This document shows positions 2,348 to 55,783 of a stretch of DNA of 64,000 nt, piece after piece. Source of the stretch: Hormiphora californensis. Taxonomy: Eukaryota; Animalia; Ctenophora. The notes beneath the pieces were generated by a model that had not been told where the DNA came from, did not search any database, and was given only the letters and a program-made list of their open reading frames with translations. Location: the NCBI GenBank assembly GCA_020137815.1, contig CM035360.1:744001-808000 (forward strand). The letters run 5' to 3'. The position numbers and the translations under genes were made by a program. How positions within the stretch are numbered: position 1 is the first letter of the stretch; each line of letters begins with the position of its first letter.

Positions 2348-4633
2348 GCTAGATTCTCGCGAACAGTAAAACTAAATTACTCAGTAATCGGATTGGGTCA
2401 ACCTCGGTTTTTGCAAATTCAATCGGTTGACTATTCAGCTGAGTCATGATAATAAAAAACGGAGTAAGATCGGCTAAGGGGGCGCATTGTATGGTGTGAA
2501 CAGTACCAGGTGCAAGCCGCTAGACAAAAGTGCAGTGGAGATCAGTAAAAATGGTGATCTATCTGCACTCTCTCTCTAACTGCAGGTTATAGTGAGTGAT
2601 CTATCTCTTATAACAGGGGCCGTGCACCAGATAACCAGATTAGCAACTCGGCATAAGCTGGTATGCGGGGGAGGAGGGGGGGGGGGGTATTTACCAATTG
2701 AATCGGAGAATATGTCTTTTCTTGAACAATAAAAAACTCATGTAAACCTAAAACCCACTGCATGCTGCACAAAGTTATAAAAAGCAGGTCCTAAGTCCTA
2801 ATATTTTACGAGTTGCAATGAGTAATGCGACGTAGGCCTAATGCATATATCAGCCATCAGGGTCAGGCTATTAATTTGTATCAAAGGCTCATGTAAGGTA
2901 AATTACTACAACACTGCAAATAGGGCTCATAATAATTAAAGTTGGTCAAGGAATAGTGCGGGTTTACACAGTATATCTGTAGATACCGTAGAAATAAGTA
3001 TCTTTAGCACGGTGCAATAAGGCACGCATGCCATGTGACCCCCCTGTATAATGCGACAACAACTGATCAAGAGATATACTAACATCTTGTAAACTCATCC
3101 CTTACTAAGTAAGTTACTTTATAACTAGAACATGATCAACCTGTACTTTAATATATCTAGCACTTGAACACCCTTTTCAGGTAGAAATCGGTATCTAGCG
3201 TGTACGCTGCAATATGTTCACTTACCCGGTCGCTTGTAGTGGGAAAATGGTAATGGAAAACGGAGACACGGTAAGAAGACGCGCAACCGTGGCCAATCAG
3301 TGCGCTAGTACGTGCTGACACATGCACTTTTTGCCGCGTGTTATGCAAAGTCTGCGTCTTATTACTGTAATTCCATGACGGTAATGCCACTACAAGCGGC
3401 AGCGTTAGGGAAAACGGAAGAGTTACCAAGTTGGGGAACACCTTAGAGGGGCACTATATATTTAACTGAAAGAGCTCCGAATACGATTACTGTTTCCCCA
3501 GGGACGATCGATCTACCGAACCCTCACAGAGCGCCCACACAACGAAATGGCGCCCCGCTAGAATTCTATACGAGATACGGGCTGAACAATGACTGAAACA
3601 TCAATTAGGGCGGTGATCCGTATCGGGTAAAGTGCGACTATTCGCCTGTTCAATGCGGGGCGGTTCACTTAAGATATAGTGGTGCAGTGGGGCAATATAT
3701 CAGTGGGCACTTAAACCTAAACCCCCCTCCATATACATGATATAAATATGAGGTCAGATTTAAAAGCATTTTATCTAAAAACTTAAAATTACTGAAAGGC
3801 TTTCCGTTCTATATAATATTTCCATTGAAGACTGGTTGTAAAAGCAGGATTTTAATAAGAGCGGCGATTGGAGCTCAAATAATCAGATAATCAGAGGGAG
3901 ATCCCCCCTTCAAATACCTCATGAGATGGTTGCTGCAGCTGCAGGATGAGGAGCCACGTTGCTATCAAGAGGGGGTGATCATCCTTTGTTTTCAGGCATC
4001 GGAGTATTTCCAGTCTCCCCCATCTCTCTTTCCAGTCCTCGCATCTCTCTCTCTATCTCTGAAAAACTCTCCCCGCCTCGTTTAATCGTGGAAATCTGTG
4101 CCGTCGTGCCCATTGTCATGCCCTAATAGAGGTGTGGGAGGGAGTCATCATGGGATGGAGGGGGGATTATCTGATTCAGGGTGATTGGCGCCAACTAGGG
4201 CTCACCACCCATTGACTATCTTTTTACTACGATTTAACCAGAGGACAATGGATTTGTCTTTTGTTAACGTAATGGAGATTGAAAGTAAGGTAAAACATGT
4301 GAAAACAGGAGATCATGAGGGGACGGAGCTAAAGAAAGAGAGGGCTGGGAGGTCTAATTAGGGGAGCCGGGCAGGGCAAATAACATATAGAATCGGGGGG
4401 ATATATGAAAAGAAATATCAGTTCTGCCGGAGACAAAAGGATTAAACGTGATTTAAAACATGGAATAATGTGGTCAAAAATATATACCTTCACTATCTTG
4501 TTAGATAGCTAGAGAGAGAGTTTGCTTTCACAATCATGATATATATGGGCTTTACAAAGCCAGTCATGTCCATAAATGGGTAATATAAAAACCGGCTATG
4601 ACCTTATATAATATGAGTATAAACCCGGTTATA

Positions 4634-7600
4634 TTATCTGTGCTCAAAGAGTTGTTTCTCGGAGTTATAAACAAAAGGTAAAATATTGGCTGGCCCCTTG
4701 AACTTGTTAAGGAAGAATTTGATCTGAGGCTCCACTCCCATACCCTCTAGATACACATCTAGCAGGAGACACAGCCGTGACACAACTTTAGTTAGCAGAT
4801 AGTTCTCGTTATCTACAACCAGTTCGGAGATGTGGACATTTAGTTCCTCTTCCATAGATCTGAGATTGTTGGGCTCCGATCCGGATATGTGGAGGGTGAT
4901 GAAGGGAGGGGTGTCAGGGTAGCGGAGAGGCAGGGCCAGGTACGCTTTACAAGTGGATTTGGCACGTTTAACCATGATCTAGGGGGGGGGGGGTTAGTGT
5001 TAAACTTGCCTAGTGATTAGAATGAGGATGAAAGATATGAGAATGAAAGATAAGAGAAAAAAGAGGCAAAAAGTGTTCAGTTCTGGCTCGTTTTTTTAGA
5101 AGATGGTATATAATACCTCATACAGTGCATCTCTATCAGATACATGCTTCTTCATTAGTTCAGGTAGATTTTCAATATCAGCTTCCTTCCACATTGACAA
5201 CTCTGTGAGAATTGTGGGTTGCGGTATCGCTCCTTCCTTCACCAGCTTGCTAGATGACAGATTCCTGCAGAAGAGTTGAGAATCATTGCACGTCTGGAGG
5301 GGGTACTCATGGTAAGAATTCTCACGTCTCTCTCTCTATAGGGCACGCGGTGCTAGATTTGCAATAGTAGATATACCAGACAAAATAGGAGCATCGAGGG
5401 GAGGGGGGCATTATTTGGAAGAAAGGAACAAGAACTTACTGTTCGATGGAAGATAGTGTCTGGCACTACCAGTATAACGTTTTAGTATACGGTGTACTAC
5501 CAGAATAATAATCAGTTTTAGTATATGCTGTGGAAATTCTACTCAGAAAAATAATAAGTACTTGAGTCGCCTTGCTCTACCCTGTCTCACCCTGTCACAG
5601 AATTGGCAGCTGACAGCTCACACAACACATGATGGTTAGTTACCTGAGCTGGTATTTGAGAGAAAGTCTGGCAAGACATCTCTTTTTAACAGCTGACAGG
5701 AACCCAGGAACAGTTTCCATGCTCAGTTTGATGTCCAGTCCGTCCCCTGATGTGTACCCTGTTATTCCAGCCAGCCGCTGGGCCCAAAGAAAGGGCCTGC
5801 CTAGTGAGGCTGGGATCTTGGATTTACTGGGGAGACTGTATTTGTTGAGGAGTGAGGCCATTTCAGGGTTTGGGCATTCGTCCCCGTAGTCCCCCTCCCA
5901 GAGGTCACATAGCAGCTCCTTGCTGGACATGTAGTCAGTTCCCTGGCAGATTTACCGGTTGTGATTTGTCTCTTAATACTCTGATAAATTACAGCGACAA
6001 TCATCTTAACTCACCACAGAGAATTTCTCCCTCCAAGGACTAGAAGTTGTAATCATAAGAGATATTCCGACAGTAACAATTCTTAGTTTCAGCAGATACG
6101 TGAACAAGACCTTAGCATGTACACCATCATCACAAGGAACAATAACCTGAGACAAAGACTTGTTAAATTATTTCAGAAAACAGTTTCTCACTCAATGAAA
6201 ATGTTTTATTTATCAGTACATTTATCTTTTTACGGGAAAATTTCACAAAACACCAACCTCGACTGTCAGGGGATGGGCTTTAAAAACTTTCTTTTTTCCA
6301 GGATCTTGAGCGGCACTTCGTCTCTTTGAGTGCTTTCCTTCATTGTCAATCGGTTCATCGATATCACTGAATAGAAACAGAGATGTTATACGGTTGAGAA
6401 ATAGGCTAATGAAACCGCGAAATTCACGGCTCCGAGTAAAAGTTTTGATGAAGGAGTAACTAAAAAATTCACTTCTACGAAAATCCAGAAAATGATCGCT
6501 CTTTCGCTTGACTTTATTTCTTTAACTATGCAATGCAAGAAATCGCTTCGGAGTGTATTGAAGTAGACTGCAGAAAGGTATCCGTGGAAACTGTCACAGC
6601 CTCACTGTGTGAAAATTGTTCAAGAGCGTTCGAAGACGATGTTCCAGATGAACCCAGGACTTTCAAGAACCGAGTTGATCGGATTATGAAATCCAATACG
6701 TTTCAAGCCATTATTGTTGTGCTTGTTGCGATTGATCTAATGCTGGTTACGTTCGAGCTCTGTGCAACTATGGATGTCGCCAAGCTAACCAGCAAAGACA
6801 ATCAGAAAAGAGTTATTTGCTGTATCCACATAGCAAGCTGCAGTATCCTTTTCCTGTTTATTTTGGAAATTATTGTTCGCCTGGTTATCAATCCCAAGGT
6901 ACTGTGGACAAAATGGGAGATATTTGATATTGTGGTAGTGCTGGCCTCGATCACGATCGACATTCTCCATATTTTCCCGAGCATGGTGACTGCAGCAGCC
7001 GAATTTATAATCGTTGGACGACTTGCTAGGGTCGCTCGGGTGGTCAACGGGACATTCAGTACGCTCAGAATTCGTAAAGGAGTGAAAATCCAGTTGCTCA
7101 AGAAAGAAAATGCGATGTTGAAAAAGAAAATTGAAGATCTTAAAAAGAGTTTGTGATTTATTTTGAAATACCTAGAATCGTTTGTCTTTGCTCTCTCAAT
7201 ATCCCCATTTATAGTTACCACAGCTCCCGACCCTAGGTACTCACTATATCCAACAACCTATCAAAGTAGAATTAAGTGTTTTAAAACATCTCTTTGGCAG
7301 ATGGCCTACTTCTAAAAAAGCACTTAAATAATATCACTTTGAAATGAGATTTTCCGAGAAACCTGACTATAAATGTTGTAAAGCTCAGGAGGGAGCCACG
7401 CAGACATCTCTGCCTGAGTGCGACGCTGTACCATTTTCAGACCAAGGAAGTCCTGCACCTGAAATGAATGAATGATATTTGTCGCCTAGAAACTAAAACT
7501 TGGGCATGAACCATTTTCTTTCTCTCTCCTGCTTCTAACTTTTTTCTCTCTCTCTCTCTCCCTCTCTGATCTCCCTCTCTCTCCTGCCGTGCCAAAAGCA

Positions 7601-8892
7601 CTATCCCTCCGTTACCTGAGTAGTTGAAGCAAGAAGTTCGTCTAATTGAGGAGGGAGAGAGCTCATATACTCCTCTAGTTTCTTAATCTCCGTCTGAAGA
7701 TCTTTCTTTTTCTTTTCCCATGTTTCTAGTTTACTCTTCATCCTGGCAGAGAGATGTGATTAGAGTTAACTGGAGAAAAACCCTGTATTCAGAAAGTCTG
7801 AGTGTATATTAACAAGTGAGCTATTCATCAAGGGGTATCCAGCGAGTTGTTTCAATACACATACCCCTTTCTCTGCTCCAGTTCCCATTCCAATCTCCGA
7901 ACCATTTGCTGATGTTTTGTCCCCCCAGGTTTCCCTCCCTCAGTGGTCATCCACTCCCCCTCAGGGATCAGACACAGCTCCTCATCTAGAGACCTGATAG
8001 GATAATGTTATGATTTGGTGTGTTAATTGACCTGAATCAACGTGGTGTGATATCCTGTATCACAAGTTAGGTCGTGCGCGTCGTGCTGACACTGAGTCCT
8101 TTCATCAGAACAAATGTGCGCGGCGTACGCTATCAACACACACTTTGGGATGTTGAGGGGGTGATCCCTGTATTGATCTCACGTGGTTCGAAGTTTGGTC
8201 AGGCATAGAAGACTCGGGATGTTACAAAGGTGAACAAATTTCAATAGCAAAACAGACGTTTCGGCGTAAAATAGCCCTCATCAGTGAGCACACTTTGGGA
8301 GCCTTTGATCTCAATATCGAGAGGCCTTGTTTCACAAAAGACTGTCCTCTCCGAACCGATCTTACAAGATAGTATGCTGTATGAACAAGACAAGGGTTTT
8401 CATACTACAACGTGACTGGTTTGGAGAGGGCAGTCTTTTGTGAAGAATACCTTACCCACTAAAACCAGACATGGCAAATATAGCTAATCGACTAACTTGA
8501 ATGTATGGCACTTCTGGATTTCTCGTTGCAGGTAGATTTCCTCAAATTGTAAATTCTTCAGCATCAAATCTTTGCTGTCTAGCTTCTTTTTTAACTGAAA
8601 GGAAGGCGAGAAAATTGTGATCAAATCTTGACTTGCAAGAACAACACAAATATAATCGACCCTAAATGAAGTTTCAGTTTTATCTCATAACCAATACCTG
8701 ATGTGTGTTGTCTCTAACCCTCTTGCACTGCTGCTGTGCTTTGCAGTTGTACTTCTTTAGTTGAGAGAAGAAAACCATACACTCCTCAAGAGCAGTGTCA
8801 CTCTTTCCGTCCTTCAGCAGTCCTAGAGCTCCAGATAGTTGGGCACAGATCTTCTTGTACAGACCACACGCGTCAACAGCCCCTGTTGACAT
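4634..8892 (-). CDS. THOC5: THO complex subunit 5 (FMIP), about 11 coding exons
   Basis: Manually spliced GT-AG exons: 8892-8698, 8594-8497, 7993-7865, 7742-7616, 7458-7363, 7257-7172, 6366-6258, 6146-6015, 5942-5644, 5249-5117, 4978-4634. Translation gives THOC5-like motifs LKNLQFEEIYLQREIQKCHTFKS, HQQMVRRLEWELEQRK, LPPELY, HPLTV, GDYGDECPNP, RPFLWAQRLAG, LCLLLDVYLE. Confidence 0.9.
6533..7156 (+). CDS. HVCN1: Voltage-gated proton channel Hv1-like, intronless, nested antisense in a THOC5 intron
   Basis: 207-aa ORF with four TM helices: S1 IVVLVAIDLMLVTFEL (D112/E119 equivalents), S2 ILFLFILEI (F150/E153), S3 WEIFDIVVVLASITIDI (D174/D185), S4 RLARVARVVNG. C-terminal coiled coil LKKENAMLKKKIEDLKK; no pore domain. 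Confidence 0.88.
   Translation: MQEIASECIEVDCRKVSVETVTASLCENCSRAFEDDVPDEPRTFKNRVDRIMKSNTFQAIIVVLVAIDLMLVTFELCATMDVAKLTSKDNQKRVICCIHIASCSILFLFILEIIVRLVINPKVLWTKWEIFDIVVVLASITIDILHIFPSMVTAAAEFIIVGRLARVARVVNGTFSTLRIRKGVKIQLLKKENAMLKKKIEDLKKSL
8151..8288 (-). mobile_element. Short insert with a degenerate Penelope-type hammerhead motif and 12-bp flanking direct repeat
   Basis: Minus strand reads CTGATGA-GGGC..GCC-GAAAC-GTCT-GTT; CACACTTTGGGA occurs at 8139-8150 and 8289-8300. Confidence 0.6.
8331..8445. mobile_element. Small inverted-repeat element (MITE-like)
   Basis: TTCACAAAAGACTGTCCTCTCCGAACC ... GGTTTGGAGAGGGCAGTCTTTTGTGAA. Confidence 0.5.
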
Positions 8893-9139
8893 GCTTCAAA
8901 CTAGGTCAAAATATACAAATATTAGCCAATATAATGAGCCTTTAGAATGACTCAGAGTTGATCTTGAAACAAATCACAATTCCAATTAATTAGGATCGGT
9001 TTAAGCAAAAATGTACAGATTAACACATTTCACAATAAAGATAGGGCGGTCCAAAAAATATAGATTTCATAAGATACATCCCACATACACAAAAACACAA
9101 TCTTGTCCCCCCCCCTAACTCCAAGTCAAACTCACGTCT

Positions 9140-12100
9140 CTACTCTCCAATCTGTGTTGCAGTAGTAAATTTGTGATAGTCCTTACTACTGACACTCAGT
9201 ACTGTCCCATTCCTAATTTCCCCACATATCCCTCTAACTAGGTTGGTATAGAATTGTTGCTCTCTAGGAAACTCAGTATACCGCTCAACGTGGTCCAAAC
9301 CGTCTTGCAGTTTGAGGGTTAGGGAATCATAGTTCGATCGGACAATCTCCATGACCTAGTGTGTGAGAGAGAGTTAGAACTAAACTGGCAAGGTTTGTTT
9401 CTATAGCAGATATATATTACCTCTTCTGGTTTGGGTGTTGAGATCTTGTTTGTCTTGGACCATGCCTCAATTTTAGGGGCAAAGTGGTTCACCAAGGCTC
9501 GAATATTGTGGAGACTAGACAATAGTTCCCGACACAAATCTTTATAATGCGACCCTGTGAAGAGGTAAGACCATTTTTATACGTGGTATGGGTGACTATA
9601 TGATTAATATTATGTGGTGCTAAACAATCGAGGGATATTAGATTCTCCTACCTCGGTTTGAGTATTGTAGTGCCGTTTCATTGAGTGCATCGAACACAGC
9701 GTACTGTCGTAGCACCTCATAATACAGTTCATCATAAGAATCAGGATTGGGTAGAAAGGTGTCTCCGTACATTACAAACATGTTAAATATCTTCCCGACC
9801 TGGGGGTAGACAGGTTGTGAGGGGGGCCCGTTGTGAGTCAAGGAAGGGAATAACAACGAATTTTATTTTCTGTGAGCCGTGCGGGTTCGTTAGATGAATA
9901 CGATACTTCCATAATAAAAGAATATCTTGAGAGACTAATAGTTGGTGAAATCTGGGTGATATAATATACCTAATTATCAATGATTTAATATAAGTATGTG
10001 TACCTGTGTATAATTATCAATGATGGCAGGTGGTCTCCATTCTTCATCTTTACTAAAGAATTGCTGTGGTATTGTGTGGTGTTATGTGTGTTATGTAGTG
10101 TGTGATAATTGAATGTGATCAATGATACTACAACTAGTTAAACTAGTTAGGGCGGGTTATAACTGCACAGGTGCTCCATGATGCTCAAATAAAAACTATG
10201 ACAGTATAATCTTCAGGTGCATAACAAACTATACATTCCTGGATAGCAGCTCCCAGAGATATACATATACTAGTTGTTGTTACATACCTGGATGTAGTTA
10301 TGTATAATCTCAGGTGAATCAAGTTCCAGAGAATTAGACCACTTCACAGCGCTGATCACCGAATTCCATAATCCATTCCAGGGATAGTTCAATCGGACTT
10401 TAGACTTCTTCTCATAGCATAGAACACGGTGAATTACTCGATAACATTTACTAAGGGAATCATTGGTTACAAATTAAGAAACCATCATGTAACCATCATC
10501 TTTCCTTGCAAAACAACTAGGTACCATTAAAAGTTCACTAATTGTACTGGTACTAGTGGTACTAAATATACTAATAGTACTAAAAGGTAGGATTTCCCCG
10601 GTAATTCCATGTAGTACCGACCTGTACAATTCTGTTGGGAAGGATTTAGTAAGGTTGGTGGTTAGGAATTCACTCATCAGATCCAATAGAGTGTATGCGA
10701 GGGACATTGGGGCAGTATCCCCTGTTGCGTCCTTACGGTGCCGCAACTTCTGTAATGTTTGAGAGTATTGAACTGGAAATTAATTAACTTGGTAATTTTA
10801 ATTGCATATCAATAAAGTTAATTCATGTAATTGTAATATTATCCAAATTCCACACATACCGTCCGATAAATGAAAACAGGGAACACCTGATTTTCATCAT
10901 GCATGAAGGCATTTGCATAGTTATCCTCAGTTATGCAAAGTAGAATATTGAAACACAACATGGCAGCAGTGTGGTTGGTTTTAACATCAGAGAAGACGAG
11001 GGAGGAGAAAGTGAGGAATGAAGAAAGCAGATTACTATGACTCTCGACTGATCCCTCCTGATCCTCCCCCTGGGCTGCTGACATCGTCTGAAACAGTGAC
11101 GTCATTGCTTTTCAATAGAGCTACGTAGATTTAATGGGACACCCTGTATAGTTACTATACAGGGTGTCCCATTAAATCTACGTAGTATACGCTAGAGATG
11201 AAGTTTAAACTTTATGAAACTCTGGCAATATTGGGGTACTGACTCCCGGGTAGGGATAAATACCTTCTCATAAAACTGTGAAAATACCTTCTCATAAAAC
11301 TGTGAGTACACACTTTCCAATAAAAACTGTGAAATGAAAGACTGTCTCTCATATACCTGAGTTAGGACGCTAGTAAAGGTCCTATTTAGATGAACTATCT
11401 CGTACAGACTCAGCAGCAGGGAGAGGTCCACAGGTGGTGGTCCATTCTCGTCTCCACTCGCCCAAAACTAGTTAATATACACTTGTTAGAAAAGAGGGAG
11501 TCACTAGCGTACTGGTTAATATACATTTGTTAGAAAAGAGGGAGTCACTAGTTCAAAACCACAAATCAGAAATACATCAATTGGATGTCTGCCTAGTGCC
11601 TAGATCGGACGGGGGAATTGAGGGGTGGAGGAGGGAGGGGGAACAGTAACTAGATCGGGGAGGAGGGTAGGGGGTCACACATACCCATGATGTTAAGTAT
11701 TCCGTGTAGGTTGCTTGGTTCGTGTGTTTTACCGCCAATACCGTGCTAAAAATAAAAAGTAATATTTATATTATAATGCTCAACAAAAAATTATTATTTT
11801 CCAACAAAAAACACTGCTACTGTTTATCTCTAACTCTCTCGTTAGCTTTACTTGCCTGGCTAGACTGTGTTTCGGGCGGGGAGGGTTAGAACATAGCAAA
11901 GCTTTACCTGTTATAGCGTGTAACATAGTTCAGTAGAATTTCACCGAACCCATTTAGTAACAACTCATCATCTGTACCAGATACTTTAATGTGATAGGGG
12001 TTGCTATACTGATAGAGGGGGAATAGGATTAGTAATGGGATTGCTATACTGAGAGAGGGGGAATAGGATTAGTAATGGGATTAGTAATAGAATACAGTAC

Positions 12101-13401
12101 ATTGGTGTAGTCAGTAAAGCGTGATAGCGTATAATGGTAAACCTCATTTCTACACACCTCATTTTTCCTGTAGTTCAGAAGTATAGCCAGGAGAGAGAGG
12201 GAGTGGGTACCAAGGGATGACCGGAGCGATGGGTTAACCAGAACTTTACAGAGACTATACCAAAGGGAATGTAGCATCAGGTACTCCACCTAGTGAGATT
12301 TGGGGAAGTTTAGAAGAGGAACATACTCCCAGTGGTAGTTTGTAATCTTGAATAATCAATAACAATCCGAGACTGACTGATTCAGTTGTTGTTGATTGCA
12401 AAAATCTTTCTATGTACATAGAGCGTATTTCATGTTTAAAACATACCATGGTGTTCTGTGACACGTTATCTGATGCACTACATAGTATCTTCAGGAATAC
12501 CAGGGCGTAATACTTCAGTTCCTGTATCTTGTTAGCTATCAGAATCTTGTGTATCTCCTCGATAAGTTGTGACATTGTCTGTTCCGCCTGATCAAACCCA
12601 ACGAGAACATCAACTGCTCTGAACCCCTCCCCCAGATCCTTCCTCCAGACACACTTCACTAGTGTAGATAGCGTCTAGTTGGGGGAATGGGAGGTGTTAT
12701 TGAAATAATGATTCTTAGCATTATTATATTAGATACACACATCAATTACACATGTGTACAATATATATGTAACAACTTGCAAGATTGAGAAGTTGCAACT
12801 TACCAACAGAATATTCAAAGATTTGATGCAATGATCCTCCCGGAGCCCTTGAACACACTTCTTGAACAGCACATTGATGGATCCCTGTAATAAGTCGGAC
12901 AATTAGTATCTGCTGAGTGCAAGTGATGAACATTATTCTAACTTACTTTACTGATAGTAATAAATATTATTTCACTTACTTTTAAGCTGATAAGATCGTT
13001 AGATGTTAGCTCACTGAAATGCTCCTCCAACACAGGAACATTAACTTTAATCAGGAACAATTTCTCCCATACACGGTCATCTTGCTCTTCTCCCTGATGT
13101 GTAATAGTGATTTTAGTGGCGATGTTATATAGTGATGTAGATAATAACTGATGTAACAGTAACGCGGATAATGGTTAAAACTATCATTGGGTACCAATCG
13201 AAATGAGATGTTTTGGTTCAAGCTCCAGCTGTACCACTATCGAGTACTTTCACCAGCATCTATTTACATATCAAGTACAGTATTACAATCTTGTTTATTA
13301 CCTCTCTCTATGCTCTATCTCTCTTTACTCTTGTTTACCTTAAGGATAGATTCGTAGATGATGCTAAACTCAGTTTTCAGCTGAGGTTTAGTGCTCCCCA
13401 T
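9140..13401 (-). CDS. ARMH3: Armadillo-like helical domain-containing protein 3 (C10orf76), multi-exon
   Basis: Exon translations [108 protein letters not shown]. ATG at 13401 inferred from the first exon MGSTKPQLKTEFSIIYESILK. Confidence 0.9.
11121..11186. repeat. Palindrome of TACAGGGTGTCCC-type MITE ends
   Basis: CTACGTAGATTTAATGGGACACCCTGTA...TACAGGGTGTCCCATTAAATCTACGTAG; related ends at 31460-31545. Confidence 0.6.
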
Positions 13402-13797
13402 CACATGATAAGAAACTAAAATATAATATTCAATTACTGCTGTTTATGTAACCGTCGCTGGATAAATTAGCTCGAAGAAACAAAACTTTAAAGTCCTCGG
13501 TTCAAACGCATGAAAATAACAGATAAGTAATTTGGCAAACGTTGCTGGCGCGGGATAAGGCAGCGCTTTTCAAATAAGTAATCTGAAATCTGAAATTCTG
13601 ACCCACTCGTCTTTTTCTCTGGCTGAAATATTATCGGTTAGATCGGTAAATTTGCGCTGCTATAAATGAAAATAAACAGTAAGGCGCGAAAAACTTTAGT
13701 TTGTAAAACGCGCGTCGCTGTACTGTTGCCAGTCAGCTCAGTTGCAGAAAATGAAAAAGTCAGAAGATTTTTGATTTTTGCCTTTTGCCCAGCGCCT

Positions 13798-14162
13798 AAG
13801 GAACCATAATATTATTATTATTATTAAATCTGTTTACAATAATTTGACACTGTCAATATTGCCATAATAAAGTTCAAGAGCCTCCAAGAGCACCCAAGAG
13901 CGCACCCGATCGAAGAGAGACCACACCTGAGAGCGCACCACACCCAAAAGAGACCACATCCAAGAGCGCACCACCTCCAGAAGACACCACTTCAAGAGCG
14001 CACCACATCAAAGAGAGCTCCCCATCCAGAAGATATGTTAGCTGCGCGCGGTATCTTCTGGATGGGGAGCTCTCTTTGATGTGGTGCGCTCTTGGAGTGG
14101 TGTCTTTTGGAGGTGGTACGCTCTTGGATGGGGTGCGCTCTTGAACTTTATTATGGTTCCTT
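13798..14162. mobile_element. Foldback/MITE with internal AAGAGCGCACC subrepeats
   Basis: Termini AAGGAACCATAATA / TATTATGGTTCCTT; arms invert around about 14045. Confidence 0.6.
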
Positions 14163-15224: not shown

Positions 15225-17475
15225 ATGGAAGTCATTCAACGTGTCATCAGTGCGCTACGGAAAGACTGTCGTGAAAGAACAATCGAGGACTTCAACACCA
15301 TCTTCGAGTATTTTGTTCAGTTACAGGTCAGTCACATGATGTTGGAACTGCAGTCATACACATAGTTTGGGAACTGCAGGGAACAGTTCAATTACCTACA
15401 TAATATCTGTTTTCGGAGAACAGATTATTCTGAATAAAGAGATCTGAGCAAGAATTTAATTAATTAAAAACAAAGATATAAGATTTATACAATTTTCCCC
15501 AACAATGCTTCATAACCTTTTTAACCGATATATCCTCCTAGTTATCCCATTTTGCTGCGTTAACAAACAAAGAACTCCGGGAGACATGCAACCTGTCACG
15601 GTACATCGAATGTGATGAGAGTACAGTTCTCTTCAAGAGAAACACCCCAGCCAAGTGCTGGTATATCCTGGTCTCTGGATCTGTGTTGTATGGAAATCAG
15701 ATGTTTTGCAAGGGTACAACATTTGGTCATAGCAAACCACCACTTCCATACCTGAGGAAGGATGATTGTATATCGTTGGAGTATTGCCAGGTAAATAGCT
15801 TGGCAAGTCTCCAAGTATTAGTTCCATTGTGTAACGAATATGTATGATTTGGTAGTTATATTTCTTGGGATGAGGCCAAGACAAGTATTGTTTACATAGA
15901 GCTGCATTGTGTGAGGCTGAGCTAAATAAAGTGAGCTGTTGTTAAGATAAATAACAATCACACTCAAGTAGCTCCAACCTATCCATGTCTTCTTTCCTCC
16001 CCCTCCCTTGTCTTCTTGACCCCACATCATTTCAGATAATAGTGATAGACTACTCAGCCCAAGAGCTAGCCGGAGGTCACGCTCCCTCGTACCGTGGGAA
16101 CCTCCGCTCCTATCCGACCCGGTACAGCGGCAGTGTGGAGAGTTACAGCCTGCAATCTGGTGAAACATTCCCTGAACGAGAGAGTATCGATGGGAAATCA
16201 GCATCTTCCATTGACTCGTATCCCGATTTGTTGGGACTAACTGAGGGAGGGGTGGATAGTGACGATGAATCGGATGAGTTGTCACAACTGAGCGCTCAAA
16301 CTATTGATCCGCTGAGGGATAGTTTGGGGAAGAAGCCCAGTGAGAGGACTGAAACTGACGTACAGGTGAGAGAAAGAAAGAAGAGTAGATGATACTATGC
16401 AATGTATAAATTCGGAGAGGCACATTTTGTTATTCAGGAAGGTCGGTTTTGGAATAATGTTAGATTAGTTAAACCGGTTAAACCATACAAATCTGAATAT
16501 TTTTCCGAATTGGGGGATTTGGTTTGATCTAGGTAACCATTCATTGTAGTTGTCTGTCTGTCTGTCTGTCTGTCTGCCTGTCTGTCATGTCTACTGATGG
16601 TTTCCCCCACATCTCAACTGTATCTCCCAGGTCACTATCTCTACCACTATCTTTATCTTCCTTTCTCCCCCTCTCTCTATCTCTCTTCCCTCACTTTTTC
16701 TCTCCTCTTCTCTCTTTCTTTGTTTCTGTTTCTTACCCTTATTCTTCATCGAATGTTCCTGATTTGGACTTGGTTTGATCTAGTTTACCATGTCTTGAAG
16801 TTCCTGATGCGTCTACTATAGTCATTACTATGTGGTTTCTCAGTCTCTCTAGGAGTCTATTGCGGACATTGCTAGTTTCCTGTAGTTAAGACAACACTCT
16901 TAAGCTAGTACTTGCTCTGGTACTATTCTTGTTACTCACAGTCTTTCGTATGTTCTCCTACCCTTTCATATCTTCCCCAGTGTATGATGTTGATTATCAT
17001 CGCTGTCACCTAGTTCTATCTGCGTGGATTGATGTTTTTGCTGTTCCGCATAAGTATCGGATGATCAGATTAGCTCTATGTGGTAGCTCGATGCTTAATG
17101 CGGTGTTGTCTTTGCTTCTCTTCAGTTCGCTATCTGTTTCTCCTCTGCTCTCTCTTCTCTCTAGTTAAATCTCTCTACTTACAATCTCTCCTTGATCCTC
17201 TCGTTCATTTGCCTTCCTGGTCTATGATATCTTCTAGTCTCCTCTCGTCATCTTCTGAATCTGTGGTGATTCTCAGTATGCTCTTGCTGTCATCAGTCTC
17301 TTCTCTCTTTCTTCTCATCTCATTCCCTCTTTCTCAGCGTCATCTCTCTTCGCATCTCTCTCTCTCTTCTCTCCACGCTCTCTCCGTGCACAGGTCCCGG
17401 ACCGACTCTGCATCGAGCCATGTGTCTCTCGTCAGAATGAGGTGCTCGTCTCTCTGCTCATCTCTCCAGTCTTCT

Positions 17476-17559
<84 letters not shown>

Positions 17560-20500
17560 CTTCTCTGCGTATTTCCCTGTGTTAAATATTTCTTCCTTGC
17601 TACCTTCGCGTACAAATGCAACTACTCATAAATTGTACTTGCACGTTCTAGTTGTATATTTATCTCCCTCTCTTCCTCGGTACTACTCAAGTTCATCTTG
17701 ACACACTACTTGTTACTTTTGGTTTTAGTATCACGGATAGTAAACTTGGGTTACTTATTTCTATCCCTATTGTTCATTGTTGTTGTGTACTGATACCTAC
17801 ATTTTCCCATTCCCAAAAGCATTATATTTCACAATGATTCGTGCTATTGTATCTATGGCATCTTCCCTGACAGGCGGCCTCCTCAGCCTTCTCTACTCCT
17901 TTGCTAAGGTGTGATAGGAAGGGAGGGTTAACATGGTTATGTGATAGGAAAGGTTGTGTGATAGGAAGGGAGGGTTAACATGGTTATGTGATAGGAAAGG
18001 TTGTGTGATAGGAAGGGAGGGTTCATGGTTATGTGATAGGAAAGGTTGTGTGATAGAAAGGAAGGGTTGTGAATAATGGTCGAGGAACAAAGATTTTGAT
18101 GGGGAGGGAGATGTAGCAGAGACTAAAACATTTTAGGAGGAGTGGAGAGGTAGGGACTAAAGCATTTTATGTGGGGACTAAAATATATTTTAGCCCCCAC
18201 TCCTATAAAATAAGGGGGTGGTGGCCGCAAAGTGGACGAGGGAAATGTACCCTGCATGCGAACTGCACACATGAGAAACACACAGCGGGGGATTGAGGGA
18301 TTAGTGGAGGGTATAGTAAGAGTCTATACTATAGACTGTAATAGAGCATGATGAAATAGCGAGTTCTCTGTTATGTACCCCATAAAATAGTGTGACGCAA
18401 ATCCAATACCACTTGAAATAATCTCTCTCTGTGTTACTCATGTCAAATTATGGGGGCGGGGCGATGTGAGTACCCCCTCCTACGTACTCGAGAATGAAAG
18501 GGTACTGGAAAGCTCGAGAGAATCATGGGAGAGGTAAAGGGTTGTGTTAGTACAGTCGGACCCCGATTTAGTAGTAGGTTATCATGTAGCTCTGTCTGTA
18601 GTTCTGTGAATGTTCGATGTCGCTCTGTGAGGGTTCAGTAGATCAAGTACAGGGGGACCCCCAAGTAAAGGGTTGTGAATTATTAAAAAACACCCCATTC
18701 CCCCCAGACGATTTGTAACGAGGTGTCACACCTCCCTGCCCTTCTGAAACTGCCCGTCCCGGTGAGGAAGGAGTTGTGTCAACGCATGCTATACAAGGTA
18801 ACCTTTCTGGGGTGTGCTATACAAGGTAACATTTCTGGGGTGTGTATCAAGCAGGATTCAGGAACCGACCGAAACAAGTAAACAACCAATCAGAACTCGT
18901 TATTTAGGTCACGTGACTGGTTATCAGCCAATTCCCTGATTCGGTCGGTTCCTGGTATCAAGTTTAGTATACAATTGACCCAACCGGCAACTTTCCGCCC
19001 CGTATCCGGGTACCCGAACCTCCCTCTCTCTACTCCCCTGTCATCAATCTCCCATCTGGATAGCGGAACCTAATTCCACTCCTAAATTCCCTACCACCAA
19101 ATTCCCAACACAACCTCCCAGTCCCATACGGCCTACCACCACCTTCCATCCCCACTCTCCACTCCTTTGCACCTCCCTGCCCCCTCTCCATCACCACTCT
19201 ATCACCACTCTACTCACTTCCTCTCAGGTGTACAAAGACCCTGGGGTAATGTTGGTGGGCCACTCCCCACTCCCCTACCACAAACCTCTCAACCCCTACC
19301 TGGGTAACCGAACCTCCCTCTACACAACTCTCGTCTCCCAGGTGTACAAAGATCCAGGGGTAATGTTGGTGGGCCACTCCCCACTCCCGGTCCCCTACCA
19401 CAAACCGCCCTAGTCCCTCTACACAATACAACTCACTCTCTCCTCCCCCCTGCAGGTGTACAAAGACCCAGGGGTAATGTTGGTGGGCCACTCCCCACTC
19501 CCCTGCCACAAACCTCTCAACCCCTACCCGGGTAACCAAACCTCCCTCTACACAACTCTCCTCCCCCCTGCAGGTGTACAAAGATCCCGGGGTAATGTTG
19601 GTGGGTCACTCCCCACTCCCCTACCACAAACCTCCCTAGTCCCTCTACACAATACAACTCACACTGCACTCCCCCCTCCCACTTCCCAGGTGTACAAAGA
19701 TCCAGGGGTGATGTTGGTGGGCCACGGGAAGGAACTCCACTCTTGGCAGGTCCTCCTAAACGGTGTGTTAGAAGTTAGAGAGGAGGGTCTCCCTCCAAAG
19801 TTGCTACATGTTGGAGAGAGCTTTGGAATGCCCGCTGCTACACAGGTACTGATACCAGTTGTATACCAGATATTAAAAGCAATTAAATAATCAAATTTAG
19901 TTACACGGTACAGTCGGACCCCGATTTACCGGGATGCTCGGGGGAAAGGGTTTTTTTAGTTACACGGTAGTTAGTTTTACTGTGTGGTTTACTGATCAAT
20001 AATATTTGGGGAATTTGTGGAACCCAGACTGATATCGGGACACCGTATGGCGTGCATACATGTGCGTGTGTATAATAAGAGTTTACCTCTCTCATTTTAG
20101 TAATTATTAAATGTATCCATCTCTTGATCTAGGTGTTGCGACAACAAGGTGATATTTTAACCCGCTCTCCTGATTGTCATGTCCTCTCTATACCGCGATC
20201 TGAGTTCCTGCAAATCATCAAGTTAGTAATATTTTACCTCTCTTGCACTGTGAGGGAGACAAGCAACATTTGAAACATTGTTCTGACGCTTCTTGTCTAT
20301 TATCTCCCAATATATCATCCAATTCTACAGTAAGAGTGAGCTAAACACTAAACGGATAAAGAACGAAGAGGGGAAGGTTATAGTGGTGAAGGAATTGAAG
20401 GCGAGTGTAACGGGTTGTCAGCCTGGAGATGTAATTACTGCTGCAGACCCACAATCTCTAATTGAACATCTGAAGGAAAATACGAAGAGTGTTGACCCTG

Positions 20501-23500
20501 AGTACACCGAGGTAATAACTGTTGTGTGTTTGTTTGTTTAATTGTTTGTCTGTTTGTTTGTTTGTTTGTTTGTTTGTTTGTTTGTTTGTTTGTTTGTTTG
20601 TTTGTTTGTTTGTTTGTATGATTGTTTGTTTGTTTGTTTGTTTGTTTTTTGTTTATTTGTTTGTTTGTTTGTTTGTTTGTTTGTTTGTTTGTTTGTTTGT
20701 TTGTTTGTTTGTTTGTTTGTTTGTTTGTTTGTTTGTTTGTTTGTTTGTTTGTTTGTTTATTTGTTTGTTTGTTTGTTTGTTTGTTTGTTTGTTTGTTCTC
20801 TAGCAGGTAGTGTGAAATGTGTCGGTAATCGAATGTAGCAGTTCTAAATTGTAACGAGATACTCATGCCGTATCTGGACTCTAGATTTTAGAACTGAGTG
20901 GGAGATGGAGAAACTGATTTCCGTAGAAATTGTTTTCTAAAATCTCACTCTACTGCTGCACTAAAATAATCACCAATCACTTAACTGTCTTGTTTTCTCG
21001 CCCACTCCGAAAACTCCCAATTATCTTTTTTTAGGATTTTCTATTGACTTATCGGATATTCATTCCCGACGTGACCCTCCTAACAAAACCTCTTCTTCAC
21101 TGGTTCGAGGACAGTCAATACAGGTTCGTAACACACTTAATTAGCAATTATCTGTTTGATGTTATAATTTTGAATAATTTTCTTAACTCCCAAATATCTT
21201 CAGATATAAGATTCTAAGCATCGTCAATGCCTGGGTTTCTTCTCATTTTACTGATTTTGACTACAACACCACGTAAGAGTACACTATATCTTGCTGTGAA
21301 CAATGTGAATTAACCCCCTAAATTGTAATCCATGTTCCCCTTATTTTGGCTGTACAGTCGGACCCCGATTTACCGGGCCCCGATTTACCGGAACCCCGAT
21401 TTACCGGGAGGATAAACTTCCCCCGATATAAGAAATTGACGATATTTTGCCCCGATATACCGGGCACCCCGATTTACCGGGCAAACCCCTTTCCCCCGAG
21501 CATCCCGGTAAATCGGGGTCCGACTGTATTAACATTTCACAAGTTGGCCTATTCAGTACCATGCTTAGTGAACTGACTAGTACTCGGTGTCTACGTGTCT
21601 CTATATATGCGTTACAACACGCCTTTGTTTACACTTGACACTGTATTGTGAGGAGCTATAAACATATGATCTCTCAATATAGAGTAGAGAGATAGAATGT
21701 GTCTGATAGAAACAGAGACAGCTAAAAATGTCTCACGTGCCTAAATATTGAATGACCATACCCACCACACCAAACGGCAAACAACCCTCTCCCCTGGCAA
21801 CTTAGTTACCCCTCCCTTGCCGGCACAAAGCCCTATTTTGTAACCCCCCTCTCCAACAAACACCCCTCTCCCCTGGCAACTTAGTTAGCCCTCCCCCTGG
21901 CAACTTAGTTACCCCTCCCTTGCCGGCACAAAGCCCTATTTTGTAACCCCCCTCTCCAACAAACACCCCTCTCCCCTGGCAACTTAGTTAGCCCTCCCCC
22001 TGGCAACTTAGTTACCCCTCCGTTGCCGGCACAAAGCCCTATTTCGTAACCCCCCTCCAACAAACACCCCTCTAGTTTCTAGAGGAATTAGAATCCCAAA
22101 TGAGAACCCCCCTCATATCATATCAAACAAACACCCCTCTGCCCTGTCACCAGGTTATGGAAATTTCTAGAGGAATTAGAATCCCAAATGAGAACCCCCC
22201 TCATATCATATCAAACAAACATCCCTCTGTCACCAGGTTATGGAAGTTTCTAGAGGAATTAGAATCCCAAATGAGAACATGGAACTTGAAACAGGAGCTC
22301 TCCCAGTTCCGACAGCTTTGCAGTAGTAAAACGTTACGAAGGACAATTACCATCGACCGGGAAAAGAGCGATCCTATACCCCTGCTAGTTGGTGGTGCCC
22401 GATTAGGGTAAGAAATTATATATGTTAACTTTTGAGTATTAATTGGACGTTAATTAGTTGGTTGGACATTGTCAAAATGAACCATGTTTGTACAGTCTCT
22501 TACACGACACGCGCCGCCACACAGCACACTCTTGTGTGGAATCCGGAAGTAGGCCCTTAATAGGAGGGGGACCCTCCCCGTCTCTGGGTGGGGAGAGGAA
22601 GAGGAGGGGGAGAGGGAGGGGAGGGGGAGAGAGCGAGAGAGAATTGAAGTATGCTAGTTCTTAAACAGACAGTGTACACTAACAATACATTTTGTGTTTA
22701 AAACGACATCCGATGCTATTAAAAGTGTAGTAGTCGACATGTCTGTTTGCCTCGCCAACTTTGTTTAGACAAAGAATCTTGGCCAGGTTTTTCAACTCCA
22801 CAGACGTGCAAACATTCACAATGAACTGTGTGTTTGATTATAATATATCGAGAATGGGGAGAGTGGGTCAACCCGGTCGTGATTATCATTAGTATTGCAT
22901 AATATTCACACATACTGACTATTATAATAGCATGCGAAGAATATAACTTGTTAGGGTATCTCGGTCCTCGGTGAAAGGTCATTATTCAGATTATTCACAC
23001 ACTGACTTGTGATATTATTCAGCATATTCAGAATAAAGAGATCTGAGCAAGAATTAAATAGGGAAGAAAATCGAAAAATACTGGGTTCGACCGGGAATTG
23101 AACCAGGGACCTCCAGAGAGACGCGCTCGATGCTCTACCACTGAGCTACCGAACCCCTGTACAGATCGCATTTCTTCACACTATATTCAAGCACATGCCC
23201 TTAGCTAGACACCATTTGATAGAGGAAGTAATCTCTCCTTGACCGAGATCTGCCCGTGTGTGTGTGAGATTCCCCTATATAACCGTTGTACGGAGGGCGT
23301 GTGTGTGTGTTGATCACCAGAAGGAGATATCAAAATTACTTCCTTTATTCAGCATAACAATGATAATAGTTGTGACGCATGGGTTCCGCATTGTTACACA
23401 ATAGAAAATGAGAAAACAAACGAACGAACAAACTTAGTGAATTATGTGTTTACTGAACGAAACAGTAAAAATAGTTGTTGCACTGTTCAACTCGCGTGAT

Positions 23501-23746
23501 TCCCCTGGGATTTGAGCAGCTCTCTCTGCAAAAGTGCACTTGTTTGCTTTCCAACTGTAAACTGTCTCTCCACATTCGCTCATATCTCACTGCAATCATG
23601 GTCCTTTCTGAAAACTTGCCAGAGCTGCATGTTTTCCCTGCCTCGGATCAGAGACATCACTCTCAGCACGGCTTCAGAATTAATATCTCCAGTACCTTCT
23701 CCAAGCATGTATCGATTTCTCTCTCTACAATATTGCATCTCTCTCC

Positions 23747-23839
<93 letters not shown>

Positions 23840-26686
23840 ATCCTCTCCTCTCTCTCTCTCTCTCTCTCTCCCTCTATCTCTCTATATCGACCCGCTCAAT
23901 CATCTCAAGTTCTTACACACAAACTATAATATAGGCTCTGGTGTCTGGGGACGATCTTCCGAAGCCCCCCTCTCCTCCCTCTCTTCAGAAGAATTAAATT
24001 TTATCTGGGATCACTATTATTTTTATTCTACATCAAGTTATATATGTAACAATCAGGCTTCGGCAGAATATTCAATTCCTAAATTATCAGTTGGGATTGA
24101 GAGAAGCTCATTCCACGGAATATATGGATCCGTTATGTTTTGTTAGGACGAAATACAGCATTATCTATATGACTCTGATTGTTAATCTCTCCCCCGACTG
24201 TTATTTATTAATCCCCCCTCTCTAGGTGTGGTATATTCGTCACGAAGGTCATGTCAGGCAGTTCATTTGATAGTTCCCTACTACGATCATGTGACCAGCT
24301 CCTGCAGTTCAACGACACGAAACTGGACCAATTTACGGAGGATCGGATAGCCAAGATGCTAGCACAAAGTAATTAATTAGTTAGAGGAAAGTTATTAGTT
24401 GATTATTCAATTAATTAAATTATTAGGATATAAGGCATTAATTCCATCCAAATAAGGCACTAACACGATGTTTCTTCCAAATAAGGCACTAAATTCTCGC
24501 TGGTAGTCCGTAGTAACAAGATGGGTATGAAGGAGGCAATGCAGAGATCAGATGACCTGCTACGGAACCGACAACTTGGCACCCAACAACGGCACTATGT
24601 AATTACTGTTATGTAATTACTAATTAATTGCCAATTACTACGTCATAATCAATATATTTTAGAGAATCAATTTATTTAGGGGAACGATTATCATTCTGCC
24701 TCTTTGTTAATGTTTTCATATAATGAAGGGGGCCTAATTAAAATTCCATCAGTACCCTCATTTTGGACTTTTTAGAACTAGACCCCCAAATTAACTGAAT
24801 ATATGTTTTCATAGAAGTAATTAAATAATTAATTAATTAATTCATTTAATGATATGTTCCCTTTTACACGCAGAGTGCAGATAACATCAGTAAGAACAAG
24901 GCGTTCTCTGGATTTATTGATTCTCTCAAATACAAGAAGACGCCCAAGCGGGTACATACCAGATTGATATCAAAATGATTGATTACTATAATTATTGTTA
25001 ATCATGATTATTTAATGGTTCATCAATATATTATTGTTCTAATGCCCAAATATGGTGTTTTGTTGTAATGCCCATATATGGTGTTTTCACCGGTTTTCAG
25101 GGTAAGCCAGATCTGAATGATGTTGGCACGATGAATGCTTCTCTCCCTCTGCCGGGTGGGTCAAACGTATTTACCCGGGGGGGGTATTTCCCCCTTGGTT
25201 TTTTAAAGAAGCGTCATTCACCTTCCCCCTTTGTATCCCCGCAAGGGAAAGATTTTATTATGTTAAAGGGGGGCATGTCCCCCACTAAAAGATGATTAAA
25301 AAACAGGATTCAACCTGCTGAACCCATGTCTCATGCTTGATAAACCTTGATCTTGGTAACTATATCGTATTCCTAATCCCTATAATTCCTCAGGGTACAA
25401 AGAAAAGAGGGGTTTTTAAGTTTTACAGAGGGATTTTACACCTTAAAAAAAGCATGTTCAGAGGGAAACAGCACGGGTTGGTTACCCGGGCTTTAACGGT
25501 ATTTGGGGGTAAATTTAAAAGGGGGGAATTGGTACTAATTAGTTTCATCCCAAAAGTCCTAATTGTTTCCCCATTTTAAAGTTGAGACTGGAAAAACCCC
25601 CCCCACTTTCCCTCTGCGAAGTGTGCTGTCCCCTTTCGGGTGCAGGGGCGACAGGGAAAAGTTGAGTTCAAACAAAGAACTTGAGGGAAAAAGACGGTTG
25701 TGTTCGGGATTATCTGAAGGTAACCCGGAGGAGGACAGCCGGGGGCCCCTTTAGCTCTCGCACAGGAGTTAAAGGGGGGAAAGGGGAGAAAGAGAAGAGG
25801 AGAGAAGAAAGGAGAGGAGAGAGAGGAGAGAGGAGAAGCGAGAGAGCGAGAAAGAAGAGAGACGAGAAAGAGAGAGAGAAGAGGAGAAGGGGGGAGAGAG
25901 GGAAAAAGAGAGAGAGAAAGGGGGGAAAAAGAGAGAAGAGGGGGAAGAAAAGGAGAAGAGGGAGAGAGGGGAGAAAAAAAGCCGAAAAGGGGGAAAACCC
26001 CCCCGCTACCCTTTTTCCCCCTCTCTCCCCTTTCGTTCTCTCTCCCCCCTTCCCTTTTTTTTCCCTCTCTTCTCTCTCTCTCCTTCTCTTTTGGGAAATG
26101 CTGCGTGATAAGTACAAAAATCAAATTTGGACCCGAGGAGGTTTTTCCCCCAGCTGACCATCAAAAAGTTTCAGTATCTTCAAAAAAGGGAGGGCAGGTG
26201 GGGGGGGGGGAAAATTAAAAAAAGGGGGATTTGGGAAAGGGGTTATATCCCCTTTTGAATGGCGGGGGAGAGAAAGAAGAATATAAGGGTGTGGTATAAC
26301 ACATGTCATGTCACATGTACTACACGTGTGTTTGAGTCCCATATATGGAAAGGGGGACGGGGGTCAAACGTCATACTACCAAATTAGGTACTCGTTCCCT
26401 CGGTGTGCCCTCGATGTGACCTGTCATCACTTGCACCATGCTATTATAGATGTTTTTCACACACATATATTCCAGATACACTGTCTATAATACTTTCAAT
26501 GGGGCTGGGCTGGTAGAGGGAAAGAGAGGAAGAGAGAGAAAGAGGGAGAGAGAGAGAGAGACAGAGGTGATATCGAGAGCAAGACCAAGCGATGGAAAGG
26601 GAGAGAGAGGAAGAGAGAGGAAGAGAGATAGAGATAGAGAGAGAAAGAGAGAGAGATAGAGAGGGGACAGAGGGAGAGAGAAAGAA

Positions 26687-26747
<61 letters not shown>

Positions 26748-27954: not shown

Positions 27955-27985
<31 letters not shown>

Positions 27986-30210: not shown

Positions 30211-30256
<46 letters not shown>

Positions 30257-30682: not shown

Positions 30683-30745
<63 letters not shown>

Positions 30746-32310: not shown

Positions 32311-32351
<41 letters not shown>

Positions 32352-55779: not shown

Positions 55780-55783
55780 TAGA

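What the first reader, a model, noticed from the sequence alone, without database searches (positions are those of the whole stretch)
8890..9145. ARMH3-THOC5 appear joined by an intercistronic intron: candidate spliced bicistronic mRNA or operon
Seen on the minus strand: the ARMH3 stop TAG (9142-9140), then AGAC, then a consensus donor GTGAGT (9135). A branch-like GCTAAT and TTTTGACCTAG acceptor close a 235-nt intron at 8901, followed by TTTGAAGC and the THOC5 ATG (8892). The 247-bp gap has no AATAAA on that strand and is almost entirely this intron, leaving little room for a 3' UTR plus a promoter. Splicing would give TAG-AGACTTTGAAGC-ATG, a 12-nt in-frame linker containing a second stop (TGA). 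Established: ctenophores use spliced-leader trans-splicing. Inference: either a stable bicistronic mRNA translated by termination-reinitiation, or an operon in which cis-splicing and SL trans-splicing compete at one acceptor.
Basis: partly seen in the sequence, partly recalled or inferred. Interest (0 to 1): 0.85.

Follow-up and report, generated by a model that had tools for sequence, protein, structure and literature searches.

The report
Candidate comb-jelly two-gene operon
Two unrelated housekeeping genes of a comb jelly lie only 247 bases apart on the same strand with a splice acceptor just before the second, so they are likely copied as one RNA that is then cut in two by adding a short leader piece, as in Hydra and worms; no RNA read here shows the bolder idea that they stay spliced together as one message.

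Summary
ARMH3 (628 aa) and THOC5 (587 aa) are intact ctenophore genes 247 nt apart, and the THOC5 ATG is the true start. The evidence for a real intron is weaker than claimed. The donor outscores only 1 of the 23 modelled donors of these genes. Missing AATAAA means nothing: THOC5's own 3' region and about 87% of 247-nt tiles lack it too. The gap is richer in U and G+U than all 23 introns and CpG-poor, unlike the DNA upstream of three neighbouring genes or exons. ARMH3 has a similar acceptor before its own ATG. This fits a spliced-leader-resolved operon like Hydra RFC140-flp (about 0.5). Rivals: an internal promoter (a GC-box-like motif lies in the gap; 0.27) and a stable cis-spliced dicistronic mRNA (0.13). 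Neither of two RNA runs covers the junction, so nothing is shown at RNA level. One unexplained contig-length coincidence in a relative keeps the dicistron alive. The scan noted similar operon-like junctions in other animals, none in a ctenophore.

The parts
13339..13401 (-). ARMH3 first coding exon (ATG 13401-13399); gene spans 13401-9140, 14 exons, 628 aa
   Evidence: introns 13338-13094, 10859-10750 and 9420-9356 skipped by X1 contigs
13416..13430 (-). Acceptor-like site (T-rich, AG at 13417-13416) 14 nt before the ARMH3 ATG; likely trans-splice site of the first gene (inferred)
   Evidence: nearest GT with U1 score of 6 or more lies 190 nt upstream (13606)
13416..13860 (-). CpG-rich upstream region of ARMH3, likely the promoter (inferred)
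   Evidence: CpG o/e 1.62 and 1.37; 14 of 259 tiles reach 1.26
9140..9355 (-). ARMH3 last exon with stop TAG 9142-9140
   Evidence: Pfam ARMH3_C positions 183-230 of 231; X1 contig spliced 9421 to 9355
9130..9135 (-). Donor-like GTGAGT 4 nt after the stop; use not shown
   Evidence: window PWM 0.28 bits, above 1 of 23 modelled donors; U1 pairing 6.5, the median of those donors; C at -1 in 0 of 23
8893..9139 (-). 247-nt gap: U 41%, G+U 63%, 3 CpG, G10 run, GU-rich tract at 9100-9087, no stable fold
9044..9050 (-). GC-box-like ACCGCCC, possible internal promoter element (motif name recalled)
   Evidence: 5 copies in the window; 3 of the other 4 lie within about 120 nt of an ATGGCG motif
8901..8926 (-). 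Branch-like GCTAAT, T-rich tract and acceptor AG at 8902-8901; likely leader trans-splice site of THOC5 (inferred)
4634..8892 (-). THOC5 gene, 11 exons, 587 aa, ATG 8892
   Evidence: start matches close relatives; introns 5116-4979, 5643-5265 and 6014-5943 skipped by X1 contigs
6533..7156 (+). Intronless Hv1-like proton-channel gene nested antisense in THOC5 intron 7171-6367

Best explanation
ARMH3 and THOC5 lie 247 nt apart on one strand and are likely a two-gene operon, predicted to be transcribed from one promoter upstream of ARMH3 and resolved into two mRNAs by spliced-leader trans-splicing at the AG at 8901. Shown: two intact genes, the gap, the acceptor with branch motif 8 nt before the true THOC5 start, the U/GU-rich and CpG-poor make-up of the gap, ctenophore identity. 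Inferred: (1) Pol II starts in the CpG-rich region at about 13420-13860 and runs through both genes; (2) the ARMH3 mRNA is cleaved and polyadenylated in the gap at a non-AATAAA signal, giving a 3' UTR under about 200 nt; (3) the leader RNA is spliced to 8901 and caps THOC5, leaving an 8-nt genomic 5' UTR; (4) ARMH3 likely takes a leader at 13416. The GTGAGT at 9135 would be a weak or chance donor that at most leaks some cis-spliced two-gene RNA, which would be exposed to nonsense-mediated decay because 10 THOC5 junctions lie behind the ARMH3 stop.
For: Gap 247 nt, within the 300-bp operon-candidate cut-off used in flatworms (PMC12582326 section 11) and shorter than Hydra's tested RFC140-flp (417 nt; PMC3273482 section 6). 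THOC5 groups with named Bolinopsis microptera proteins, 66% identity, 100/100 support for the 8-row clade; the leader was on 56% of Hormiphora long reads (PMC8527503 passages). No coding exon can join at 8901: in-frame TGA at 8898, and all 7 close relatives in the alignment start within a few residues of the window's Met. The span 9135-8901 has U 0.413 and G+U 0.634, above all 23 modelled introns (maxima 0.408 and 0.592); U-rich sequence before trans-splice acceptors is described in Hydra, Schistosoma and Ciona (passages). CpG o/e 0.45 in the gap against 1.62, 1.58 and 1.26 upstream of ARMH3, Hv1 and the carbonic-anhydrase exon. ARMH3 has a like acceptor before its ATG. 7 of 9 tabulated short contigs with a close THOC5 relative leave only 152-308 nt outside its CDS, too little for ARMH3 (about four distinct species-level sequences; gene order there unknown; contigs can break at branch points). 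In flatworms cis-splicing is lowest at operon-resolving acceptors.
Against: No leader read, no read across the gap and no poly(A) site was seen. A GC-box-like ACCGCCC lies in the gap; it occurs 5 times in the window, 3 of them near ATGGCG motifs in promoter-like places. The U margin over introns is slight (0.413 against 0.408), and the last 61 nt before 8901 are not exceptional (T 0.41; 3 of 23 introns equal or higher). The donor pairs with U1 as well as the median modelled donor (3.2% of background GT do) and sits 4 nt behind the stop. 2 of the 9 contigs have more non-coding room (789 and 2062 nt). The promoter comparison rests on three regions that are not mapped start sites; 63 of 259 tiles are as CpG-poor as the gap.
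Confidence: 0.5

Rival explanations
1. THOC5 has its own compact promoter in the gap (around the GC-box-like motif at 9050-9044); its short 5' end is removed at 8901 by trans-splicing, and the genes are close neighbours or a hybrid of both modes.
For: ACCGCCC in the gap, about 143 nt upstream of the acceptor; 3 of the other 4 copies lie near ATGGCG motifs at about 3550-3660 and 57280-57300. Most trans-spliced genes in Schistosoma are monocistronic (PMC5832876 passages).
Against: Only 3 CpG in the gap against 15, 18 and 8 in the three upstream regions compared. About 100 nt between stop and motif must hold the ARMH3 3' end. Five copies of a 7-mer in 64 kb is near chance, and the motif was picked after the fact.
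Confidence: 0.27
2. The 235 nt are a true intron. Cis-splicing leaves 12 nt between the ARMH3 stop and the THOC5 ATG, and THOC5 is made mainly by termination-reinitiation on a stable two-gene mRNA.
For: Donor 4 nt after the stop (GTRAGT within 10 nt: about 0.4% by chance), branch motif and acceptor in order, length within the 65-805 nt range of the 23 introns. GTGAGT is a used donor at 6014; both modelled donors without G at -1 also carry AGT at +4 to +6. In relative X2 the ARMH3 contig runs about 114 nt past the expected stop and the THOC5 contig begins near 8808; a 30-nt contig overlap would put stop and start 0-12 nt apart (arithmetic; letters not shown). One relative's THOC5 contig has 2062 nt of unseen extra sequence, about an ARMH3 CDS (1887 nt here).
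Against: No junction read. Donor above only 1 of 23 modelled donors, 12% of background GT score as high, C at -1 in 0 of 23. The AATAAA argument fails. Ten junctions behind the first stop would invite decay unless reinitiation is efficient (55-nt rule, described for mammals, PMC3951408 passages); reinitiation after a 628-codon ORF is usually poor (recalled). 7 of 9 relatives' contigs are single-gene sized. An ordinary 114-nt 3' UTR explains X2 equally.
Confidence: 0.13
3. Neither splice signal is used: THOC5 starts inside the gap with an unspliced 5' UTR, and the motifs are chance in AT-rich DNA.
For: Acceptor PWM score is modest (-0.99 bits, above 4 of 23 modelled acceptors, reached by 13.5% of background AG); 208 of 259 minus-strand tiles hold some donor-like motif.
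Against: Branch motif plus AG directly before the start, repeated in form at ARMH3; most ctenophore mRNAs carry a leader; an unspliced leader reaching past 9028 would hold upstream ATGs.
Confidence: 0.1

Closest known systems
Hydra RFC140-flp operon (PMC3273482; section 6 and passages read)
   Same: Two unrelated same-strand genes, a few hundred nt from stop to acceptor, T-rich gap, acceptor just before the downstream ATG, non-bilaterian host with spliced leaders.
   Different: In Hydra the leader, the lack of a promoter in the gap and the need for the AG were tested, and a candidate poly(A) signal is present. Here none is shown, there is no AATAAA, and a donor-like site follows the stop.
Flatworm SL-resolved operons and shared cis/trans acceptors (PMC12582326 section 11 and passages; PMC5832876 passages)
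   Same: Same-strand gaps of 300 bp or less; cis- and trans-splicing can share one acceptor.
   Different: Cis-splicing is lowest at operon-resolving acceptors there, which speaks against the intron being the main route here; different phylum.
Processed dicistronic mRNAs of Drosophila (159 pairs) and human SNURF-SNRPN, LASS1-GDF1 (PMC4528330, PMC3951408; passages)
   Same: What the locus would be if the 235 nt are spliced out: two CDSs on one mature mRNA with a short spacer.
   Different: No mature two-gene RNA is shown here; both ORFs are long (628 and 587 aa); this host lineage has a leader machinery that can resolve the pair.
Ctenophore spliced-leader trans-splicing and nested genes (Hormiphora, PMC8527503 passages)
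   Same: Explains unpaired acceptors before start codons and the Hv1 gene nested in a THOC5 intron.
   Different: The main text has 0 occurrences of 'operon' or 'polycistronic'; its supplements could not be read.

Membership tests
SL-resolved eukaryotic operon | Same-strand genes with a short gap | tested here: met
   247 nt from stop to start
SL-resolved eukaryotic operon | Host lineage has spliced-leader trans-splicing | tested here: met
   THOC5 groups with Bolinopsis; leaders in Hormiphora and Mnemiopsis. Met at phylum level; species not identified; no exact match to the leader's end plus GT in the window
SL-resolved eukaryotic operon | Splice acceptor before the downstream start with no coding partner | tested here: met
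   AG 8901, in-frame TGA 8898, relatives start at the same place
SL-resolved eukaryotic operon | U-rich intercistronic sequence | tested here: met
   U 0.413 and G+U 0.634, above all 23 introns; margin for U slight
SL-resolved eukaryotic operon | No promoter in the gap | tested here: inconclusive
   CpG-poor, but a GC-box-like motif at 9050-9044
SL-resolved eukaryotic operon | Leader joined to the downstream mRNA | tested here: inconclusive
   No contig of the 2 runs reaches 8900
SL-resolved eukaryotic operon | Upstream mRNA polyadenylated in the gap; polycistronic precursor exists | not testable with these tools
   Only contigs were served, no raw or long reads; AATAAA is uninformative here
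Processed dicistronic mRNA | Mature mRNA holding both CDSs | tested here: inconclusive
   The X1 contig ends at 9143 in adapter; X2 contigs do not show the gap
Processed dicistronic mRNA | Functional donor after the first stop | tested here: inconclusive
   Weak by window PWM, median by U1 pairing
Processed dicistronic mRNA | Architecture immune to nonsense-mediated decay | tested here: inconclusive
   All junctions are covered only if THOC5 is translated from the same mRNA; 10 junctions follow the first stop
Processed dicistronic mRNA | Both proteins translated from that mRNA; arrangement conserved | not testable with these tools
   No ribosome data; no relative's DNA obtained

The most novel reading that the evidence does not exclude
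In this ctenophore the ARMH3-THOC5 gap is a real intron whose donor competes with the spliced leader for one acceptor, so the cell chooses between two separate mRNAs and one stable two-gene mRNA on which a full-length protein is made by reinitiation 12 nt behind a 628-codon ORF.
Probability: 0.13. Interest if true: 0.75.

Novelty: new member of a known kind. Interest (0 to 1): 0.4.

Why it matters
If it is an operon, it extends leader-resolved operons to ctenophores, the likely sister group of other animals, and gives a precise site to test. The three papers returned for ctenophore + operons + Pleurobrachia bachei are on other subjects (search listing only), and none holds both gene names. The 2010 ctenophore leader paper and the 2014 Pleurobrachia genome paper were not held; I recall, without being able to check, that the latter mentions operon-like clusters, so ctenophore operons may not be new. 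If the dicistron is real, it would be an unusual case of efficient reinitiation between two long ORFs and of cis-versus-trans splice choice setting the ratio of two proteins.

Tried and rejected
No whole genome is held, so no genome-wide count of stop-donor/acceptor-ATG pairs. Run search gave 2 rows, one with share 0.06 and one with 0.00. X1 (very close, mostly 95-99% alike) confirms six intron skips but has no cover at 8616-8966, and its ARMH3 contig ends at 9143 in 19 letters whose reverse complement begins with the Illumina adapter quoted in PMC7986045; a hole in contigs proves nothing. X2 (about 82% alike) has ARMH3 and THOC5 on separate contigs of different depth; contig depth cannot rank genes, so it is not used. 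The metagenome scan gave 2 loci that are chance matches; the one read is a bacterial acyl-CoA dehydrogenase-type gene. The 17-nt search of viral contigs gave 8 chance matches. THOC5 alignment against prokaryote genomes and viral contigs: 0 of 57 and 0 of 92 candidates confirmed. Search for longer THOC5 forms: 0 of 41 candidates, weak evidence, it missed known relatives. An in-frame ARMH3-THOC5 fusion via GT at 9143 and AG at 8894 was considered and rejected: both sites score below all 23 modelled ones. The gap has no stable fold (z -0.12). Rfam finds only a tRNA in the window. A search for C. elegans dicistronic and hybrid operon terms returned 2 unrelated papers. Supplements of PMC8527503 could not be read and may bear on gene order in Hormiphora.
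Full report
Observation. Exon models built from the window give ARMH3 at 13401-9140 (14 exons, 628 aa) and THOC5 at 8892-4634 (11 exons, 587 aa), each with one stop and GT-AG at all 23 introns. Pfam supports both names, and contigs of RNA run X1 skip six of these introns. The gap from stop to start is 247 nt.

Host. The THOC5 exon search found a full-length relative, whose search returned 7 proteins, among them one named from Bolinopsis microptera. The window's THOC5 is 66% identical to it and sits in an 8-row clade with 100/100 support, apart from Nematostella and bilaterian rows at 28-33% (14 rows). The host is therefore a ctenophore; the species was not determined. In Hormiphora 56% of long reads carry a spliced leader, and nested genes are common (PMC8527503, passages).

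The THOC5 start is real. An in-frame TGA lies at 8898, so nothing coding can be spliced to 8901, and all 7 close relatives in the alignment begin within a few residues of the window's Met. The AG at 8901 is thus a 5'-UTR acceptor. It is moderate by a PWM from the 23 introns (above 4 of 23) and has a branch-like CTAAT that 5.4% of background AG have. ARMH3 has an acceptor-like site of similar score 14 nt before its own ATG, with the nearest fair donor 190 nt upstream. Acceptors before start codons are what trans-splicing predicts and need no donor.

The donor. GTGAGT at 9135 pairs with U1 as well as the median modelled donor, and such a hexamer falls within 10 nt of a given point about 0.4% of the time; that is the real point in favour of an intron. 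Against it, the window-trained PWM ranks it above only 1 of 23 donors, 12% of background GT score as high, 21 of 23 donors have G at -1 and none has C, and the chance of such a hexamer somewhere in 200 nt is 8.5%. The PWM rests on 23 sites and is rough.

The AATAAA argument fails. Only 31 of 259 and 34 of 259 tiles of 247 nt hold AATAAA, and neither the 1.2 kb after the THOC5 stop nor the 1.1 kb after the Hv1 stop has it, though X1 contigs cover THOC5's 3' region to 4427.

Make-up of the gap. U is 0.413 and G+U 0.634, above every one of the 23 introns (maxima 0.408 and 0.592), with a GU-rich tract at 9100-9087. It holds 3 CpG (o/e 0.45), like introns, whereas the DNA upstream of ARMH3, Hv1 and a carbonic-anhydrase exon has o/e 1.62, 1.58 and 1.26, a level 14 of 259 tiles reach. 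This favours no promoter in the gap. Against that, ACCGCCC at 9050-9044 occurs 5 times in the window and 3 of the other 4 copies lie near ATGGCG motifs in promoter-like places; reading these as GC-box and YY1 sites is recalled. The passages read of PMC12221973 describe a GC-rich ctenophore promoter motif with two CpG but do not give its letters.

RNA evidence. Only two runs, both contigs, were served. Neither covers 8900 or the gap. X1's ARMH3 contig stops at 9143 in adapter. In X2, a relative at about 82%, the ARMH3 contig continues 328 unseen letters, about 114 past the expected stop, and a separate THOC5 contig begins near 8808. If the two overlap by 30 nt, as assembly contigs often do (recalled), stop and start would be 0-12 nt apart, as in the proposed spliced form; but the lengths of both gene ends in X2 are unknown and a 114-nt 3' UTR fits as well. 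Of 9 tabulated short contigs with a near-complete THOC5 relative, 7 leave 152-308 nt outside the CDS and 2 leave 789 and 2062 nt (left out: fragments, one 36.8-kb contig and the 20.8-Mb chromosome rows). The first group looks single-gene; the 2062-nt case could hold an ARMH3 CDS. Gene order in these relatives is unknown.

Mechanism. Most likely (0.5) one promoter upstream of ARMH3 drives both genes, ARMH3 is polyadenylated in the gap, and THOC5 is capped by the leader at 8901. This is the layout tested in Hydra RFC140-flp (PMC3273482; section 6 and passages). In flatworms cis- and trans-splicing share acceptors often, but least at operon-resolving sites (PMC12582326; section 11), and in Ciona weak upstream donors go with more trans-splicing (PMC11155486; passages), so a weak donor at 9135 is compatible with an operon and some leak. 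An internal promoter (0.27) is the main rival. A stable dicistron (0.13) would need efficient reinitiation after 628 codons to clear 10 downstream junctions (rule from mammals, PMC3951408, passages); processed dicistronic mRNAs are known in Drosophila (PMC4528330, passages). All RNA-level steps are inferred.

Novelty. Works like a leader-resolved operon; membership is unproven because leader addition, the precursor and the lack of a promoter were not shown. Searches found no paper on this pair and none on ctenophore operons among the held papers (listings), but two key papers were not held. The scan's earlier notes list three operon-like junctions in other animals and none in a ctenophore. Verdict: a real, tight gene pair and a good test site; the headline intron is unshown. 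Interest 0.4.

Noticed in passing
window 6533-7156 (+): Intronless Hv1-like voltage-gated proton channel gene nested antisense in THOC5 intron 7171-6367; one relative at 88%, whose top feature hits are Hv1 clusters. Its 3' UTR must run antisense over THOC5 exons.
   Followed up: partly
window 13406-13399 (-): The ARMH3 start is overlapped by a start-stop mini-ORF (ATGTGATG), 9 nt after the acceptor-like site at 13416.
   Followed up: no
window 12100-12009 (-): A tandem duplication of about 40 nt at the 3' end of ARMH3 intron 12157-12009 makes two near-identical acceptors; the first leads to a stop.
   Followed up: no
window 3160-3700 (-): Carbonic-anhydrase-like exon (Pfam E 7e-5, below cut-off) about 1.2 kb after the THOC5 stop, behind a CpG-rich region; the rest of the gene was not modelled.
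   Followed up: partly
window about 15540-34280 (+): A RAPGEF-like multi-exon gene (RasGEF and weak cNMP hits) divergent from ARMH3.
   Followed up: no
window 53407-56731 (+): Two long overlapping ORFs (790 and 333 aa) with Cys/His clusters and low-complexity repeats, no Pfam hit, next to a transposon-like ORF at 52705-53154 and trinucleotide arrays at 50600-52360.
   Followed up: no
P0038 and P0045: One relative's 607-aa THOC5 is listed on a 36.8-kb contig (intronless gene or spliced model); another has a 7-residue in-frame extension before the conserved Met that could be read from an acceptor-like stretch.
   Followed up: no
window 23083-23155 (-): tRNA-like match (Rfam 39.7 bits) inside an intron region.
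   Followed up: no
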